48,241 nucleotides of DNA from a virus (taxonomy: Duplodnaviria > Heunggongvirae > Uroviricota > Caudoviricetes), in the IMG/VR virus record IMGVR_UViG_2617270956_000008, positions 1 to 48,241 of that record; one strand, 5' to 3'. The notes beneath the pieces are model-generated. The model ran no database searches and was not told the DNA's origin. It saw nothing but the letters and a program-made list of their open reading frames with translations. Both the position numbers and the translations under genes were made by a program. Of this stretch, positions 36,264 through 45,357 are shown piece by piece (the first letter of the stretch is position 1; each line of letters begins with the position of its first letter).

Positions 36264-36419
36264 TTACTCCTCAGGTTCGTAAGCTGTGAAGACAGCGACC
36301 TCCGTCTGGCCGGTTCGGATTCGTACCTCGCAGAGGTCTTTCCTCGTTACCAGTGCCGTCACTATGACGGTTAAACAGATGACGATCAGGGCGATTAACA
36401 TCGCCTTTTGCTGCTTCAT
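36264..36419 (-). CDS. hokD: Hok/Gef-family type I toxin (HokD/RelF-like), 51 aa
   Basis: MKQQKAMLIALIVICLTVIVTALVTRKDLCEVRIRTGQTEVAVFTAYEPEE matches HokD/RelF as recalled; AAGGAG SD 9 nt upstream of the internal ATG. Confidence 0.85.
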   Translation of the reverse strand: MKQQKAMLIALIVICLTVIVTALVTRKDLCEVRIRTGQTEVAVFTAYEPEE

Positions 36420-36630
36420 AGCCTGCTTCTCCTTGCCTTTCGGCACGTAAGAGGCTAACCTACGTTTGTGAAGCATAGATTGGGCCTCAGATTAATGTTA
36501 AACGTCTTGCAGGACGCGTAATGTTAACTGGGGCTTTTCTCTATCTGCCGTTGGTGTTCATGCCCGAGGCAGATAGCCTCAAGCACCCGCAGCAATTCTA
36601 CTTAACTCACGTCACCTCGCCAATATAAAA

Positions 36631-42043: not shown

Positions 42044-42491
42044 TAGCTTTTTCTATAAGCTCGTCAGTCTCACGTTCCACAACAGCTGGATCCGCAAAAA
42101 GCAGCCCGGACTCCACCACATCGCCATATTCTTTGTTTAATCCGGCGATCATGTACGTAATGCTTTTTCCATCACTGATCTCACGATACAACCTGAAATC
42201 ACTAATTCGGATAGCCTCCATAATTGCCGGAATCAGCGCCGTGAATTTTTTCCGCTTATCCCTGGTGTCGATAGCTTTCCAGCGTTCGAATATCTTCACC
42301 CGGTTAACGCCCAGCGCCCGTTGATCAACCTCGCCATCATTAAACGTGACGCGTTGAACATCGATGTTCGGGCGTTCTTTCAGAGCCCAGAATGCTTCCG
42401 TGATTAATATCGTCGCTTGCTCCTGTGTCATTCCTGGTCGACATACCCAGGCATCCAGAGCCTCACAAACCTGTTCAGGGGTGATTTTCAT
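41940..42491 (-). CDS. YdaT-like (CII-like) regulator, 183 aa
   Basis: Directly downstream of the Cro-like gene; the LIPAIMEAI segment resembles Rac YdaT as recalled. Confidence 0.45.
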   Translation of the reverse strand: MKITPEQVCEALDAWVCRPGMTQEQATILITEAFWALKERPNIDVQRVTFNDGEVDQRALGVNRVKIFERWKAIDTRDKRKKFTALIPAIMEAIRISDFRLYREISDGKSITYMIAGLNKEYGDVVESGLLFADPAVVERETDELIEKAIAFKHAYRQQYQYYFADKQMSARGLYEYRCTTMG

Positions 42492-42702
42492 TGTTCAACC
42501 GCCCCGCCCGCTTTGCCTTACGATATTCGTCATAAACTTTGGGGTCGTACTGAAGTTCCCCGCCGGATGCCTCCTGTAGACGCATCGCGCGACCTTCAGG
42601 AACCAGTTTCCCCCATGCAGCAACGCTTGCCAGCCTAACTCCTGCGGCATTGGCAAGCTTTGTTTTGCTGCCAAAAAACGCTATAGCATCAATTTTCAAC
42701 AT
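42475..42702 (-). CDS. dicC: Cro-like repressor DicC, 75 aa
   Basis: FFGSKTKLANAAGVRLASVAAW HTH; divergent from dicA; close to Qin DicC as recalled. Confidence 0.8.
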   Translation of the reverse strand: MLKIDAIAFFGSKTKLANAAGVRLASVAAWGKLVPEGRAMRLQEASGGELQYDPKVYDEYRKAKRAGRLNNENHP

Positions 42703-42778: not shown

Positions 42779-43186
42779 ATGAAAAACGAAACCTTCGGTG
42801 CTCGCCTCTTATACAGGCGTAAAAAATTAAAACTGTCTCAGGCCGCATTAGGTAAGCTGGTCAAAGTGGCTCACGTAACAATTTCTCAATGGGAAAGAGA
42901 TGAAACACAGCCAGCAGGGAAGAGATTATTCGCACTGAGCCAGGCGCTTCAGTGCTCGCCGACTTGGCTTCTTTTTGGAGATGAAGATAAGCAACCAGGC
43001 GAACCGATCCCAGATAATCAGCCAGTTAATCTGACAGAAGATCAAAAAGAGTTGCTTCAACTGTTCGACGCACTGCCTGAGTCAGAGCAAAAGGCTCTGT
43101 TGTCAGAGATGCGTGCTCGAGTTGAGAATTTCAACAAACTTTTTGAAGAACTACTCAAAGCTCGCAAAAGAAGCGCAAATAAATAA
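42779..43186 (+). CDS. dicA: immunity repressor DicA (HTH-XRE, no peptidase domain), 135 aa
   Basis: Aligns along its length with Qin DicA as recalled (…SQWERDETQPAGKRLFALSQALQCSPTWLLFGDEDKQP…MRARVENFNKLFEELLKAR). Confidence 0.9.
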   Translation: MKNETFGARLLYRRKKLKLSQAALGKLVKVAHVTISQWERDETQPAGKRLFALSQALQCSPTWLLFGDEDKQPGEPIPDNQPVNLTEDQKELLQLFDALPESEQKALLSEMRARVENFNKLFEELLKARKRSANK

Positions 43187-43287: not shown

Positions 43288-43317
43288 TTGACCACAATTC
43301 TTAGGTTATTCTAAATT
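43288..43317 (+). promoter_or_regulatory. putative promoter of the ydfA-dicB operon with embedded CTTAGG operator motif
   Basis: -35 TTGACC (43288-43293), 18-bp spacer containing CTTAGG (43300-43305), -10 TAAATT (43312-43317). Confidence 0.35.
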
Positions 43318-43393: not shown

Positions 43394-43549
43394 ATGGATA
43401 CTATCGATCTTGGCAACAACGAATCTCTGGTATGCGGCGTGTTTCCCAACCAGGACGGCACGTTTACCGCGATGACGTATACCAGAAGCAAAACGTTTAA
43501 AACCGAAAATGATGCCCGTCGCTGGCTGGAAAGAAACTCAGGTGAGTGA
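43394..43549 (+). CDS. ydfA: YdfA-like protein, 51 aa
   Basis: Internal ATG with GAGG SD; MDTIDLGNNESLVCGVFPNQDGTFTAMTYTRSKTFKTENDARRWLERNSGE matches Qin YdfA as recalled. Confidence 0.8.
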   Translation: MDTIDLGNNESLVCGVFPNQDGTFTAMTYTRSKTFKTENDARRWLERNSGE

Positions 43550-43550
43550 T

Positions 43551-43754
43551 ATGGATTTCGACACAATCATGGAAAGGCTTACGAAGAATACTTCGAAGAC
43601 CTTGCCGAAGGCGAAGAAGCTCTCAGCTTCAGTGAGTTTAAACAGGCGCTTTCCAGCTCGGCAAAATCTAACGGCTGATAAGCGAAGTAGCACCGCGAGG
43701 AATCAGTATGCAGAAACGAGAACCCGTCATAATCGCGCCAGACTATACCGATGA
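43551..43754 (+). CDS. YdfB-like small protein (uncertain extent)
   Basis: ATG 1 nt after the ydfA TGA (MDFDTIMERL...); the ORF overlaps the ydfC start by 47 nt, so the real stop or frame may differ. Confidence 0.3.
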   Translation: MDFDTIMERLTKNTSKTLPKAKKLSASVSLNRRFPARQNLTADKRSSTARNQYAETRTRHNRARLYR

Positions 43755-43926
43755 TGAACTTTATGAGTGGATGCGCCAGAAAATTAATGCAGCGCAGGAT
43801 CTGAAATGGGCTAATGAAGCCAGGGCTAAGCAGGCTGAAAATCTGTCCGCTCTGGAGCAGGATATCACCAATCTGGAAAAAGCAGCGGCATTAAGCATTG
43901 CCAGAATGATTACATACCCGCGTTAA
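43708..43926 (+). CDS. ydfC: YdfC-like protein, 72 aa
   Basis: ATG with GAGGA SD 6 nt upstream; MQKREPVIIAPDYTDDELYEWMRQKINAAQ... matches Qin YdfC as recalled. Confidence 0.8.
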   Translation: MQKREPVIIAPDYTDDELYEWMRQKINAAQDLKWANEARAKQAENLSALEQDITNLEKAAALSIARMITYPR

Positions 43927-44267
43927 TAGCTAACCAACGAAGCTAAGGTTGGTAATTAAGGAGTTCTCCACGGGTGAGGTGGAGTGCGTGCGCCGGACAC
44001 GGGTGAGCATCCGGCACTGACAGTTTACTGAAAGGATATTTCCCTGAAAAGTCAGACCATAACGCGAAAGCGCACGGCGAGGTAGCTGGTTCATAGATAG
44101 CCTGTCGTTAAATTTTCGTCGACCGTGCGCTTCCGGTTGTGGCAATCCGCGAAATGGCGCGGCGGTAAGTATGGCGGGGGTATTTCTTCCCCCGTTGAGG
44201 ACACCGGGTTGTCAGGTTGACCATACGCTTAAGTGACAACCCCGCTGCAACGCCCTCTGTTATCAAT

Positions 44268-44325
44268 TTTCTGGTGACGTTTGGCGGTATCAGTTCTACT
44301 CCGTGACTGCTCTGCCGCCCTTTTT
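44268..44325 (+). ncRNA. dicF: DicF small regulatory RNA
   Basis: TTTCTGGTGACGTTTGGCGGTATCAGTTCTACTCCGTGACTGCTCTGCCGCCCTTTTT nearly matches DicF as recalled; GGCGG/CCGCC terminator stem plus T-run. Confidence 0.8.
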
Positions 44326-44799
44326 AAAGTGAATTTTGTGATGCGGTGAATGCGGCTAAGCGCACGCGGAACAGTTAAAACCAAAAACAGTGTTATGGGT
44401 GGATTCTCTGTATCCGGCGTTAATTGTTAACTGGTTAACGTCACCTGGAGGCACCAGGCACCGCATCAACAAAGTTCACTTCGGTGATGAAAGGTAGAGA
44501 AAATGTTGAATGTAGCTATTGAAAACCAGAACGGGTGGAATTATAGTGCACCAGCACCTCATAAAACGGGTGCCGGGCGTGGAAACCCGAAATCATTCAC
44601 GGCGCATAACCGCGCTCAGGCGGTTTTTTTATGCGTTAAGCACAGCCACATTCGCATTATGGTGGGGCGTGCAGGGCAGCCGCAAGGCTGGCCGGGTTCC
44701 GTGATGACCGGTATTTCCACCCCTGTACGTCTCACCACCCTTATGGTCGTGGAAAACCTCGGTGGTGAGTTAATCAAATTCATCGCGGAGGCTGCCATC

Positions 44800-45357
44800 A
44801 TGGCTACTATCCTTACCCTTTCTCACCCTGACGTAACCATCGAAAATGGTCGCGCTGTCACTACGTCTGTTGCGATCGCCGAGTTCTTTGGCAAACGCCA
44901 CGAACGAGTGTTGGATAAAATTCACAATCTGGACTGTTCAGCAAAATTCACTGAGCACAATTTTGTGTTGAGCGAATACACCGACTCAACCGGGCGCAAA
45001 CTCCCAATGTACCAAATCACCAAAAACGGCTTCGTTTTCCTGGTGATGGGGTTCACAGGTAAAAAAGCCGCAACTTTCAAAGAAGCCTACATCGCTGAGT
45101 TCGATCGCATGGAGGAAGAACTGCGCCAGAATAACGCCCCGTCTCCCGACAAAATGATTCACGGGGACGGACGCACCCTGGTTATCCGTCTCGACGAACA
45201 CGGCAATATCAAATTCACTGAAACCGTTCCTGACGGCGCAATGGTCTGCACCCTGGATACCTTCCGGTTTTATCTGGAGAAACAAGGATGGACTCTTGTA
45301 AACCGGAGCGCAATTAAAAATATGACTGTGGAGCAATTGCTAAAAATTCATTGTTGA
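44800..45357 (+). CDS. Rha-family phage regulatory protein (possible antirepressor), 185 aa
   Basis: ATG with GGAGG SD 8 nt upstream; Rha-type motif RAVTTSVAIAEFFGKRHERVLDKIHNLD. The track ORF starts at 44503, but its N-terminal 99 aa look non-coding. Confidence 0.6.
   Translation: MATILTLSHPDVTIENGRAVTTSVAIAEFFGKRHERVLDKIHNLDCSAKFTEHNFVLSEYTDSTGRKLPMYQITKNGFVFLVMGFTGKKAATFKEAYIAEFDRMEEELRQNNAPSPDKMIHGDGRTLVIRLDEHGNIKFTETVPDGAMVCTLDTFRFYLEKQGWTLVNRSAIKNMTVEQLLKIHC

What the first reader, a model, noticed from the sequence alone, without database searches (positions are those of the whole stretch)
43927..44325. DicF sRNA with a highly structured GC-rich upstream leader
DicF is present at 44268-44325. 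The roughly 340 nt upstream contain several inverted repeats (for example GCGCACGG...CCGTGCGC and GGTTGTCA...TGACAACC), consistent with the processed precursor from which DicF is released by RNase cleavage. I first considered this a novel structured RNA, but DicF-precursor structure explains most of it.
Basis: partly seen in the sequence, partly recalled or inferred. Interest (0 to 1): 0.4.

Follow-up and report, generated by a model that had tools for sequence, protein, structure and literature searches.

The report
Conserved pseudoknotted RNA upstream of DicF
The stretch in front of the small RNA DicF is not plain spacer: it contains a compact, conserved folded RNA that about four in five E. 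coli genomes and phage P1 carry just ahead of a transcription stop signal, that no database names, and whose job is still unknown.

Summary
DicF is real (Rfam 72.4 bits, window 44269-44320). "Precursor structure" does not explain the region, though. It has three parts:
- Module A, 43966-44055: three hairpins with no covariation support.
- Helix B, 44057-44142: a long helix that covaries between phage lineages.
- A roughly 100-nt core, 44147-44241: helices P2 to P5 plus a 6-bp pseudoknot, GUAUGG (44169-74) with CCAUAC (44221-26).

The core is supported by compensatory changes: 15 pairs against 5.3 in shuffles, 0 of 500 shuffles as high.

The core matches no Rfam 15 family. It occurs in 4415 of 5426 complete E. 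coli genomes, in P1/P7-like phage-plasmids, and in Citrobacter, Trabulsiella, Erwinia and Izhakiella. All 136 loci examined have an intrinsic terminator after it. It occurs without DicF: in P1 it follows the Pban promoter, and in cdtI, Ayreon and 2H10 it follows the predicted early-left (PL-equivalent) promoter. DicF-like RNAs also occur without it, in two phages that encode N.

My best guess (about 0.35-0.4) is a cis-acting leader RNA that controls termination or read-through in early operons of phages lacking N. It is not related to HK022 put. The function is untested.

The parts
43708..43926 (+). ydfC coding sequence; its stop codon is the 5' boundary of the leader
   Evidence: 72-aa ORF. 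Aligns to K-12 ydfC. No Pfam family.
43966..44055 (+). Module A: three hairpins at 43966-84, 43992-44015 and 44017-55. Two of them have ACGGGUGAG in the loop.
   Evidence: Predicted in the MFE and centroid folds. Conserved in sequence in many prophages, but 0 of 43 predicted pairs in modules A+B show a change on both sides within the E. coli set. In other prophages a minus-strand gene starts directly upstream of this module.
44057..44142 (+). Helix B. Strand 'a' CCAUAAC plus AAGCGCACGGCGA (44057-80) pairs with UCGACCGUGCGCUU plus strand 'b' GUUGUGG (44119-42), closing a variable apex at 44081-44118.
   Evidence: Forms in the MFE fold. Duplex energies of -23 to -34 kcal/mol in 18 loci, with apex lengths of 22-128 nt. 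97.1% of cells paired; 7 of 18 pairs changed on both sides between the window, cdtI, Erwinia and Trabulsiella types; slid controls 0-2.
44147..44162 (+). P2 hairpin of the core: CCGCG-AAAUGG-CGCGG
   Evidence: 94.8% of cells paired in A3. Only one-sided changes (U-G), so there is no compensatory support. Absent in pHX138.
44163..44206 (+). P3 (CGGU 44163-66 with ACCG 44203-06) enclosing the variable hairpin P4 (CGGGG 44175-79 with CCCCG 44190-94)
   Evidence: P3 is 100% paired; U-A becomes C-G in P7-like copies and U-G in L097. P4 has 3 of 5 pairs changed on both sides, and its loop length differs by 1-5 nt between copies, which excludes coding. Compared with K-12, the window has one extra G-C pair in P4.
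44169..44174 (+). Pseudoknot 5' strand: GUAUGG
   Evidence: Pairs with CCAUAC at 44221-26. 99.5% of cells paired. The second pair is U-A in 28 sequences, U-G in 2 and C-G in 2 (P1-type: GCAUGG with CCAUGC). In the viral-contig set the counts are U-A 52, U-G 3, C-G 3. The pseudoknot was not part of the covariance model used to build these alignments.
44207..44241 (+). The loop holds the pseudoknot 3' strand CCAUAC (44221-26).
   Evidence: 5 of 8 pairs changed on both sides, for example GGGUAAC/GUUACCC in Izhakiella and GUGAUCA/UGAUCGC in pHX138. The loop pattern retrieved copies from at least 6 genera. Only 3 kinds of loop variant were seen among 125 loci fetched with a pattern outside the loop.
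44245..44251 (+). Strand 'c', CUGCAAC: nearly the same sequence as strand 'a', and an alternative partner for strand 'b' GUUGUGG (candidate closing stem P1)
   Evidence: All observed variants (CCACAAC, CUACAAC, CCACAAU and others) keep pairing with GUUGUGG through wobble pairs. There is no true two-sided change among the lambdoid copies. The MFE fold prefers a:b. Whether b:c ever forms is unresolved.
44259..44278 (+). Linker hairpin GUUAUCA (44259-65) with UGGUGAC (44272-78). The DicF 5' end (44269) lies in its AU-rich loop.
   Evidence: Predicted in folds of all Qin-type loci. RNase E dependence of the DicF 5' end comes from Faubladier 1990 as cited in PMC5069750. The cleavage was not tested here.
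44269..44320 (+). DicF sRNA
   Evidence: Rfam RF00039, 72.4 bits, E = 3.8e-14. One loop difference from K-12: GUUCUAC instead of GUUUUAC.
44283..44325 (+). Intrinsic terminator: the DicF 3' hairpin (GGCGGUAUCAG ... CUGCUCUGCCGCC) followed by U5
   Evidence: Every one of 136 loci that carry the core has a hairpin plus U-run within 52-144 nt after the P5 loop.

Best explanation
Shown: the leader is the Qin-type ydfC-dicF spacer, and it is a composite. It consists of three unsupported hairpins (module A), a covarying long helix with a variable tip (helix B, 44057-44142), and an autonomous, pseudoknotted RNA core of about 100 nt (44147-44241). The core is a previously unnamed RNA family of temperate enterobacterial phages. 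It is transcribed on the DicF strand, and an intrinsic terminator follows it in every locus examined.

Inferred mechanism: the core folds on the nascent early transcript and acts in cis on the transcribing RNA polymerase or its termination decision. It would set how much transcription stops at the next terminator, releasing a short RNA such as DicF. The rest would read through that terminator and later ones into the early genes: here STnc100-like, isrK, C4 and the Rha antirepressor; in Qin dicB; in P1 the tRNA-ban operon. In function this would resemble N-independent antitermination of the HK022 put type, but carried out by an unrelated RNA.

Confidence is split. That the conserved structured RNA domain exists: about 0.9. 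That it works in cis on termination or read-through: about 0.35-0.4.
For: Structure:
- A covariance model built from 25 sequences finds exactly one copy per locus, at 80-146 bits.
- On 32 distinct sequences, 94.5% of cells pair and 15 pairs changed on both sides, against 5.3 +/- 1.6 in shuffles (0 of 500 as high) and 2-5 in slid controls.
- 59 distinct viral-contig sequences give 96.4% paired and 9 pairs against 3.5.
- The pseudoknot covaries: U-A, U-G, C-G.

Autonomy from DicF: the core occurs without an Rfam DicF in P1, P7, pHX138, cdtI, pPE4 and four other genera. DicF-like RNA occurs without the core in phiSTEC1589 and PhiR5_2.

Position:
- In P1 the model match starts about 20 nt, and the core's P2 about 35 nt, after the start site implied by the annotated C1-controlled P1ban -10 element. 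A terminator follows directly, then the tRNA-ban operon.
- In Ayreon the core lies about 280 nt after the predicted early-left promoter, in a roughly 580-nt leader without real genes. A second annotated terminator lies inside the same operon.
- cdtI, 2H10, Stx2c phages and pPE4 have the same layout directly after the repressor gene.

Terminator: present in 136 of 136 loci. Its distance (25 to about 100 nt) and its sequence both vary. That fits a mechanism that does not depend on distance and argues against a fixed alternative-pairing platform.

N gene: the five phages with a promoter-proximal core have no annotated N, and no N of two types was found in any of the loci then held, about 260. Both phages without the core encode N. 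No put-like sequence occurs in the loci.

The near-invariant loops are shared by otherwise unrelated phages (P1-like and lambdoid) in at least 6 genera. This points to a conserved host partner such as RNA polymerase.

A 2025 paper notes that N-less lambdoid phages related to 2H10 have no known early antitermination mechanism and guesses at put (PMC12315714).
Against: - No experiment bears on function, and nothing here measures read-through.
- HK022 has put sites on both early operons. These phages have a single copy and none on the rightward (PR) side.
- In this window and in Qin the core lies about 900 nt from the likely promoter, behind ydfABC, so it is not promoter-proximal here.
- According to the literature, a large share of Qin transcripts terminate at DicF. 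A strong antiterminator just upstream would not predict that.
- The N anti-correlation rests on 7 phages, several of them closely related, and on only two N types plus depositor annotation.
- The repeated strands a, b and c (CAYAAC, GUUGUGG, CYRCAAC) hint at a switch that I could not resolve.
Confidence: 0.4

Rival explanations
1. Trans-acting structured ncRNA. Termination at the DicF-type terminator, plus RNase E cleavage where DicF is present, would release a stable RNA of roughly 120-300 nt containing the core. Its invariant loops would bind a host protein or RNA, acting as a decoy, a sponge, or an early anti-defence or takeover factor.
For: - In P1 the layout is promoter, core, terminator, which is that of an sRNA gene of about 170-180 nt.
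- The core is always followed by a terminator.
- The loop sequences are invariant across genera.
- It sits in early regions that also carry anti-defence genes, for example Tad2 downstream in pHX138.
- The tip of helix B in Erwinia, Izhakiella and L053 carries two perfect T-arm-like hairpins, which suggests a larger RNA built from recognition modules.
Against: - No target complementary to the loop was found in the window above chance.
- No stable species of this kind is reported in the DicF literature I could read.
- In Qin and this window the core is internal to an mRNA, not a discrete gene.
Confidence: 0.25
2. Plain DicF precursor. The hairpins only provide context for RNase E or RNase III processing, or protect the 3' end of the upstream ydfABC mRNA, or keep a long untranslated leader folded so that Rho cannot load. 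There would be no specific partner.
For: - The leader is the Qin spacer.
- The DicF 5' end lies in the AU-rich loop of a hairpin immediately 3' of the core.
- RNase E processing is documented.
- Long untranslated leaders, about 580 nt in Ayreon, would be Rho targets if unstructured.
Against: - The core occurs without DicF, and DicF-like RNAs occur without the core.
- In P1, cdtI and Ayreon there is no upstream cistron to protect.
- Generic structure does not need a covarying pseudoknot or a 19-nt loop conserved from P1 to Erwinia prophages.
Confidence: 0.12
3. Riboswitch-like attenuator. The core would be an aptamer for a metabolite or ion, and ligand binding would decide whether the downstream terminator forms.
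For: - The core has a compact multi-helix fold with a pseudoknot and invariant junction and loop nucleotides.
- It sits in a 5' leader just before an intrinsic terminator.
- The repeated strands a, b and c could form mutually exclusive helices.
Against: - No Rfam riboswitch family matches even at E<=10.
- The spacer between core and terminator varies from about 25 to 100 nt and is unrelated in sequence between lineages.
- I found no antiterminator pairing that is conserved or covaries across the P1, pHX138, cdtI and Qin types (inspection).
- In Qin the core is not in a 5' leader.
Confidence: 0.1
4. Not an RNA element at all: either protein-coding on one strand (annotators often place hypothetical proteins here) or a DNA-level site such as an operator, attachment site or origin.
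For: - ORFs of 71 and 52 aa lie on the minus strand.
- Several phage records annotate a hypothetical protein across the match.
- In other prophages module A lies in a divergent intergenic region.
Against: - No Pfam hit for any ORF in the leader.
- Copies differ by 1-, 2-, 4- and 5-nt indels inside P4.
- Substitutions are compensatory in helices and include G-U pairs that exist on the + strand only.
- NCBI's PGAP annotates nothing here in nearly all E. coli genomes listed.
Confidence: 0.02

Closest known systems
DicF sRNA and its ydfABC-dicF-dicB precursor (Qin prophage, E. coli K-12)
   Same: Same locus type. DicF scores 72.4 bits, and the leader is 97% identical to K-12 with ydfA and ydfC upstream. 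DicF's terminator hairpin is the terminator that follows the core here.
   Different: The literature treats the 342-nt leader as untranslated spacer or 3'UTR. The core is a separate module that is found without DicF and is missing from some DicF-like loci. In this window DicF is followed by STnc100-like, isrK, C4 and a Rha antirepressor, not by dicB.
HK022 put RNAs (putL, putR): factor-independent processive antiterminator RNAs
   Same: Both are structured RNAs on the nascent early transcript of temperate phages that lack N. Both lie downstream of a repressor-controlled promoter and upstream of terminators. Both are shared across phages, so they presumably recognise a host machine.
   Different: There is no sequence or model similarity: the covariance model finds nothing in HK022 at E<=1, and putL/putR find nothing real in the loci. 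Put is two stem-loops of about 70 nt. This RNA is four helices plus a pseudoknot, about 100 nt. There is one copy per phage rather than one on each early operon. Antitermination activity is untested.
Lambda-type nut sites (boxA/boxB) with N protein
   Same: Both are leader RNA elements in the early-left operon. P2 is a 5-bp hairpin with a purine-rich loop that superficially resembles boxB, and the 3' strand of helix B in some lineages resembles boxA (UGCUCUUU in Trabulsiella) (inspection).
   Different: No N gene was found in phages that carry the core. The boxA-like string is base-paired in helix B and is not conserved in the window type. The two phages that encode N lack the core.
C4 (P1/P7) and P4 CI RNAs: antisense RNAs processed out of phage leader transcripts (Rfam RF01695)
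   Same: Both are compact structured RNAs embedded in a phage early or immunity leader, with conserved loops, and both are found in P1-like and lambdoid elements. A genuine C4 copy lies 400 nt downstream in this window.
   Different: The C4 model does not match the core. No target complementary to the loop was found in the window. The complementarity of the conserved loop is internal, forming the pseudoknot.
Transcription-terminating riboswitches
   Same: Both have a pseudoknotted, multi-helix, sequence-invariant fold followed by an intrinsic terminator.
   Different: No family match, no conserved expression platform, variable distance to the terminator, and no known ligand.

Membership tests
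DicF (Rfam RF00039) | Match to the covariance model at or above the gathering score (48 bits) | tested here: met
   72.4 bits, model positions 1-52 of 52, window 44269-44320
DicF (Rfam RF00039) | 3' Rho-independent terminator hairpin with a U-run | tested here: met
   Stem 44283-93 with 44307-19, U5 at 44321-25
Qin-type ydfABC-dicF precursor | Leader similar in sequence to the Qin ydfC-dicF spacer, with ydfA/B/C upstream | tested here: met
   97.1% identity over 342 nt to a K-12-type chromosome (H17). Annotation dicC, dicA, ydfA, ydfB, ydfC. YdfA matches DUF1391. ydfB carries a 1-nt deletion here.
Qin-type ydfABC-dicF precursor | DicF 5' end made by RNase E, 3' end by termination or RNase III | not testable with these tools
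   Literature only (PMC5069750, PMC9438474)
HK022 put RNA | Sequence or structure similarity to putL/putR | tested here: not met
   Model R1 gives no hit in the whole HK022 genome at E<=1. blastn with putL/putR finds only 20-24-nt matches 8-10 kb from the core, in sequence that does not look like put.
HK022 put RNA | Two adjacent stem-loops of about 70 nt in total | tested here: not met
   The core is P2, P3/P4 and P5 plus a pseudoknot, about 100 nt. Put architecture as described in PMC9378689.
HK022 put RNA | Located on the nascent early transcript, downstream of a repressor-controlled promoter, in a phage without N | tested here: inconclusive
   Met in P1, Ayreon, cdtI, 2H10 and Stx2c phages. 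In this window and Qin the core lies about 900 nt downstream, behind ydfABC. There is one copy per phage, not two.
HK022 put RNA | Factor-independent suppression of pausing and termination through the RNA polymerase beta-prime zinc-binding domain | not testable with these tools
   Needs in vitro transcription and rpoC mutants
Lambda nut / N antitermination | A cognate N protein encoded next to boxA-boxB | tested here: not met
No N is annotated in Ayreon or in the cdtI and 2H10 regions. Limit: only two N types were tried.
Any Rfam 15 family (riboswitches, ribozymes, tRNA-like RNAs, C4, isrK and others) | cmscan match within 43927-44268 | tested here: not met
   No match at gathering thresholds or at E<=10 with permissive filters. 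ARAGORN finds no tRNA or tmRNA.
Terminating riboswitch | Conserved alternative pairing between the aptamer's 3' part and the terminator (an expression platform) | tested here: not met
   The spacer is about 25-100 nt and unrelated between lineages. Candidate pairings seen in P1 or Qin are not kept in pHX138 or cdtI (inspection, not a formal search).
Terminating riboswitch | Specific ligand binding | not testable with these tools
   Needs in-line probing or ITC
C4/CI-type antisense RNA | Loop sequences complementary to target sites in the same operon | tested here: not met
   Apart from the element itself, complements of the P5 loop occur in the window only at chance level. The window ends 3.9 kb downstream.

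The most novel reading that the evidence does not exclude
The P2-P5/pseudoknot core may be a new class of self-sufficient regulatory RNA on phage early transcripts. One reading is a second, structurally unrelated solution to N-independent processive antitermination. The other is a sensor that gates early-operon read-through. Either way it sits unannotated in E. coli K-12 (Qin), in phage P1 right after the Pban promoter, and in about 81% of complete E. coli genomes. In O157-type and other strains it would set the balance between DicF release and expression of downstream toxic or regulatory genes (dicB, kil, antirepressor).
Probability: 0.3. Interest if true: 0.85.

Novelty: new variant of a known kind. 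Interest (0 to 1): 0.62.

Why it matters
- DicF is one of the oldest known sRNAs, and Qin and P1 are textbook elements. An undescribed RNA domain with covariation support next to them, present in 4415 of 5426 complete E. coli genomes (up to 8 copies each) and in about 500 P1-like plasmids, is a gap in annotation.
- If it controls termination, it would explain how lambdoid phages without N or put (cdtI, Ayreon, 2H10, Stx2c phages) express distal early genes. A 2025 paper leaves this question open.
- It would also explain how cells tune the ratio of DicF to the toxic downstream products. That ratio bears on cell division, on metabolism and, in EHEC, on virulence regulation by DicF.
- The hypothesis can be tested directly with simple reporter fusions and one compensatory pseudoknot mutant.

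Tried and rejected
- **Rfam:** searched at gathering thresholds and at E<=10; nothing in the leader.
- **tRNA or tmRNA likeness:** ARAGORN negative in the window and in 8 loci. A resemblance to 5S rRNA helix IV/V that I noticed by eye is not backed by Rfam.
- **put homology:** rejected.
- **Antisense target of the invariant loop within the window:** chance level only.
- **Coding potential:** rejected.
- **Second, diverged copies:** for example on the rightward operon; none found.
- **More distant relatives:**
  - The genome scan gave 19 true hits in 6 genera and 2 chance hits.
  - A viral scan anchored outside the loop gave mostly cdtI-type copies and few loop variants.
  - A metagenome scan for P5-stem variants gave only 2 contigs.
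  - The family is therefore narrow in sequence, and covariation at the invariant positions cannot be improved with these collections.
- **Covariation in module A:** none.
- **Closing stem P1 (b:c):** its apparent two-sided changes come from poorly aligned P1-phage rows. I now treat it as an unproven alternative to the a:b pairing.
- **boxA/boxB reading:** of helix B's 3' strand plus P2; not conserved in the window type.
- **SD-ATG inside the Erwinia-type terminator hairpin:** the peptide is not conserved and the ATG is ATA in one Trabulsiella copy.
- **Promoter scan upstream of the Izhakiella copy:** nothing found.
- **Literature:** the key older papers were not available: Faubladier 1990 and 1994, Lobocka 2004 on P1, Murashko 2017, Melson 2019. 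Prior mention of this conserved block beyond P1's "dicF-like region" annotation therefore cannot be excluded.
Full report
**1. The observation**

Rfam places DicF at window 44269-44320 on the + strand: 72.4 bits against a gathering score of 48, matching the whole model. The terminator U-run runs to 44325.

GCGCACGG is at 44070-77 with CCGTGCGC at 44123-30. GGTTGTCA is at 44207-14 with TGACAACC at 44234-41.

The 399 nt fold better than all 100 dinucleotide shuffles on either strand: z = -2.8 on + and -3.85 on -. Energy alone shows structure but does not pick a strand.

**2. Identity of the leader**

The 342 nt between the ydfC stop codon (43926) and DicF match 4426 of 5426 complete E. coli genomes. 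They are 97.1% identical, end to end, to a K-12-type chromosome. There the match lies between ydfC and dicB, with dicC, dicA, ydfA and ydfB upstream.

Pfam confirms the neighbours in the window:
- a DicA-like HTH protein (42779-43186)
- a P22-Cro-like protein on the other strand (42475-42702)
- YdfA/DUF1391 (43394-43549)
- a Rha-family antirepressor downstream (44800-45357)

The literature I could read describes DicF as released from this transcript by RNase E at the 5' end and by termination or RNase III at the 3' end. It calls the region only a "long untranslated region" or the ydfC 3'UTR (PMC5069750, PMC9438474).

**3. The leader is modular**

BLAST against phage genomes gives partial matches with sharp boundaries:
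- query positions 21-215 in phiSTEC1589 and PhiR5_2
- 30-102 in phi367
- 121-342 in HannyBb
- 210-333 in cdtI, Ayreon, 2H10 and Stx2c phages
- 221-318 in P1, P7 and relatives

The last block lies upstream of DicF. In the P1 record it overlaps a feature annotated only as a "dicF-like region". Aligning these copies showed two invariant stretches, GGCGCGGCGGUAAGUAUGGC and CAGGUUGACCAUACGCYURAGUG, separated by hairpins whose stems change in a compensatory way.

**4. The core domain**

I collected copies in three steps:
- an exact-pattern scan of viral contigs (120 loci)
- one scan of one genome per species, which gave 19 true hits in E. coli, E. albertii, E. ruysiae, Shigella, Citrobacter, Trabulsiella, Erwinia tracheiphila and Izhakiella, plus mis-binned MAG contigs and 2 chance hits
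- a covariance model built from 25 representatives

The model finds exactly one copy in every locus, at 80-146 bits. It finds none in HK022, phiSTEC1589, PhiR5_2 or phi367.

Window coordinates of the fold:

| Element | 5' strand | 3' strand |
|---|---|---|
| P2 | 44147-51 | 44158-62 |
| P3 | 44163-66 | 44203-06 |
| P4 | 44175-79 | 44190-94 |
| P5 | 44207-14 | 44234-41 |
| Inner P5b | 44215-17 | 44227-29 |
| Pseudoknot | GUAUGG 44169-74 | CCAUAC 44221-26 (inside the 19-nt P5 loop) |

On 32 distinct sequences, 94.5% of cells are standard pairs. Fifteen pairs show changes on both sides, against 5.3 +/- 1.6 in column shuffles (0 of 500 reach the observed value) and 2-5 when partners are slid by 1-3 columns. 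An overlapping set of 59 distinct viral-contig sequences gives 96.4% paired and 9 pairs against 3.5.

Support by helix:
- P5: 5 of 8 pairs changed on both sides.
- P4: 3 of 5.
- P3: 1 of 4 (U-A to C-G in P7-like copies, with a U-G intermediate).
- Pseudoknot: 1 of 6 (U-A in most copies, U-G in two lineages, C-G in P1-type copies).
- P2: no compensatory support.

The pseudoknot was not in the model, so those columns were not fitted to it.

Many G-U pairs would be A-C mismatches on the opposite strand, so the RNA is on the DicF strand. Copies differ by 1-5-nt indels in the P4 loop, and no ORF in the leader has a Pfam match. The region is not coding, although several phage records place "hypothetical proteins" on it.

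**5. Helix B and module A**

In 18 loci the same helix forms at -23 to -34 kcal/mol around tips of 22-128 nt.

Between the window type (AAGCGCACGG with CCGUGCGCUU) and the cdtI, Citrobacter, Erwinia and Trabulsiella types (GAGAGCAUUG with CAGUGCUCUC; AAGAGCAUUC with GAGUGCUCUU), 7 of 18 pairs change on both sides. Overall 97.1% of cells pair, and slid controls give 0-2. Two caveats apply: I picked the strands with a duplex search, and the changes represent few independent events.

The helix includes the pairing of CAYAAC (strand a) with GUUGUG (strand b). Strand b could instead pair with the nearly identical CYRCAAC (strand c, 44245-51) on the far side of the core, which I first drew as closing stem P1. 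MFE folds prefer a:b. The evidence for b:c is only that all variants of c remain wobble-compatible. I leave this as a possible switch, unresolved.

The three hairpins of module A (43966-44055) are conserved in sequence, but 0 of 43 predicted pairs in modules A+B vary on both sides within the E. coli set.

**6. Where the core sits**

- **P1 and P7.** The model match starts about 20 nt, and the core's P2 about 35 nt, after the start site implied by the annotated C1-controlled P1ban promoter. A strong terminator, GCCCAUCUUCGGGUGGGC followed by a U-run of 6-8, follows directly, ahead of the tRNA genes and the ban operon.
- **Ayreon** (a complete, viable K-12 phage). The core lies about 280 nt after the predicted early-left promoter that follows cI, inside a leader of about 580 nt. 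A DicF-like terminator follows it, and another annotated terminator lies within the same operon. The genome encodes Q but no annotated N, and has a single core copy.
- **cdtI, 2H10, a Stx2c phage and pPE4** have the same layout directly after the repressor gene.
- **Izhakiella and related E. coli prophages.** The RNA starts next to a divergent region that carries two operator-like repeats.
- **All 136 loci with enough flank** have a hairpin plus U-run 52-144 nt after the P5 loop. For Qin-type loci my script's first hit, at +58, is inside DicF; the real U-run is at +85.

Rfam finds no DicF (E<=0.01) beside the core in P1, pHX138, cdtI, pPE4, Citrobacter, Trabulsiella, Erwinia or Izhakiella. Conversely, phiSTEC1589 and PhiR5_2 keep module A, helix B and a DicF-like RNA, but have GGUUGUG-AAUAA-CAACA where the core would be. 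Both of these phages encode N.

The core and DicF are therefore separable modules. What stays constant is the sequence core, then terminator.

**7. Mechanism**

Shown:
- a conserved, pseudoknotted RNA domain on the early transcript
- loops that are near-invariant across unrelated phages and at least 6 genera
- a terminator that always follows, at a variable distance and with a variable sequence
- frequent promoter-proximal position in phages with no detectable N or put

Inferred: the core acts in cis on the elongating polymerase or on the termination decision. It would set the split between a short terminated RNA (DicF here) and read-through into downstream early genes. That would make it a functional analogue of put.

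The variable spacer argues against a classical riboswitch platform and for a mechanism that does not depend on distance. The shared host machinery would explain why such different phages keep the same sequence. A 2025 study notes that N-less relatives of 2H10 have no known early antiterminator (PMC12315714).

Points against this reading:
- nothing functional has been measured
- there is one copy per phage, with none on the rightward operon
- in this window and Qin the core lies about 900 nt from the likely promoter (a TTGACC-18-TAAATT match at 43288-43317)
- much Qin transcription is reported to stop at DicF

I put about 0.9 on the existence of the RNA domain and about 0.35-0.4 on this mechanism. 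The main rival is a released, trans-acting structured RNA (0.25). The remaining rivals are generic precursor, stabiliser or anti-Rho structure (0.12), a ligand-sensing attenuator (0.1), and a coding or DNA-level element (0.02).

**8. Comparison with known systems**

- **DicF:** membership met.
- **Qin precursor:** membership met.
- **put:** membership fails on sequence or model similarity and on architecture. Only the position resembles it.
- **nut/N:** fails because no N was found.
- **C4/CI-type antisense RNA:** fails because there is no model match and no target.
- **Rfam 15 in general:** no family matches.

I could not read Faubladier 1990 or 1994, or the P1 genome paper. Some earlier recognition of sequence conservation here, as in P1's "dicF-like region" label, is likely. 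I found no description of the fold, and the region is unannotated in RefSeq genomes.

**9. Spread and verdict**

The 102-nt core matches 4415 of 5426 complete E. coli genomes, with a median of 2 copies and a maximum of 8. It also matches 509 PLSDB plasmids, mostly non-mobilizable P1-like elements of about 95 kb in Escherichia, Salmonella, Klebsiella and Shigella.

The finding is real.

Noticed in passing
window 43551-43680 (ydfB): Compared with K-12, the window lacks one A in the run ATGGAAAAGG (about 43572-43575). This shifts the ydfB frame, so ydfB is a pseudogene here or the base is a sequencing error (the frame problem was first seen).
   Followed up: partly
window 44332-44473 (+): Sub-threshold match to Rfam STnc100 (38 bits against a gathering score of 47, E = 2e-6) directly after DicF. 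Similar sub-threshold matches lie downstream of the core or of DicF-like RNAs in pPE4, phiSTEC1589 and even P1. This suggests another conserved noncoding block travelling with this region.
   Followed up: no
window 44541-45357 (+): An immunity-type RNA cluster follows DicF instead of dicB: a weak c4-a1b1 match (44541-93), isrK (44554-44630, with its own terminator), C4 antisense RNA (44655-44742) and a Rha-family antirepressor ORF (44800-45357). At least two terminators therefore lie in series between the likely promoter and the antirepressor.
   Followed up: partly
window 36414-36588 (-): A full-length sok antitoxin RNA (Rfam 113 bits), implying a hok/sok-type toxin-antitoxin locus elsewhere in the prophage.
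   Followed up: no
L148:4430-4520, L149 about 2270-2360, L053 (tip of helix B in Erwinia, Izhakiella and one viral contig): The variable tip of helix B carries two perfect T-arm-like hairpins, GCAGG-UUCAAUU-CCUGC and GUCCG-UUCAAUU-CGGAC. ARAGORN calls no tRNA there. This may be a tRNA-like or T-loop recognition module in a larger leader RNA.
   Followed up: partly
window 44057-63, 44136-42, 44245-51; L149 downstream of the core: Repeated complementary strands: a (CAYAAC), b (GUUGUGG), c (CYRCAAC) and, in Izhakiella and pPE4-type loci, a fourth strand d (GUUGUG or UGUUG) that pairs with c. The layout 1:2, 2:3, 3:4 recalls an attenuator, but the c:d hairpin is not followed by a U-run.
   Followed up: partly
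L012, L020, L024, L027 and others, immediately upstream of module A: In many prophages ydfABC is absent. Instead a minus-strand gene starts right next to module A (CATTTCACCCTCC or CATTTTATCCTCCAT, which reads as a ribosome-binding site plus ATG on the minus strand). Module A then lies in a divergent intergenic region and may hold promoters.
   Followed up: no
L021, L032, L051, L101, L149 and others, about 100-200 nt upstream of the core: Two direct repeats, TTGTTGGGGA(T/A)A, followed by a conserved hairpin CCAC-CUCGCCUGAC-GUGG and then UUAAAAGCAGGCACACAAC. These look like operators plus a further leader hairpin of the early-left promoter region. The simple promoter scan found nothing.
   Followed up: partly
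L007:2694-2760 and L260 (phiSTEC1589, PhiR5_2): Phages that encode N carry a DicF variant with a different 5' part, AUUGCUGUGUGUAGUCAUUGGCGG... (Rfam DicF 35.6 bits, below threshold). The same variant 5' part follows the core in Erwinia, Izhakiella and Trabulsiella. DicF-like sRNAs therefore appear to form a wider family than RF00039 captures.
   Followed up: no
phage records under the match (for example cdtI orf40, Ayreon SJJBTUD_0036 and 0037, 2H10 gp36, pPE4 gp07): Depositors annotate short hypothetical proteins on either strand across the core and its leader. Indels and compensatory substitutions indicate that these are spurious gene calls.
   Followed up: partly
L155:11527-11652: One viral-contig copy has changes that break P3 (CGG to AGG, U to C without a partner change) and put a G-U pair in the pseudoknot (UCAUAC). 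It may be a decaying copy.
   Followed up: no
L256 (E. coli O103 RM8385), 4 kb upstream of a 99.4%-identical leader: The same leader plus ydfC sits behind a different immunity region (HigB/HigA toxin-antitoxin, an ECs_2282-family zinc-binding protein, a YdaT-type module) and is followed by dicB. This illustrates how freely the block is shuffled between prophages.
   Followed up: no
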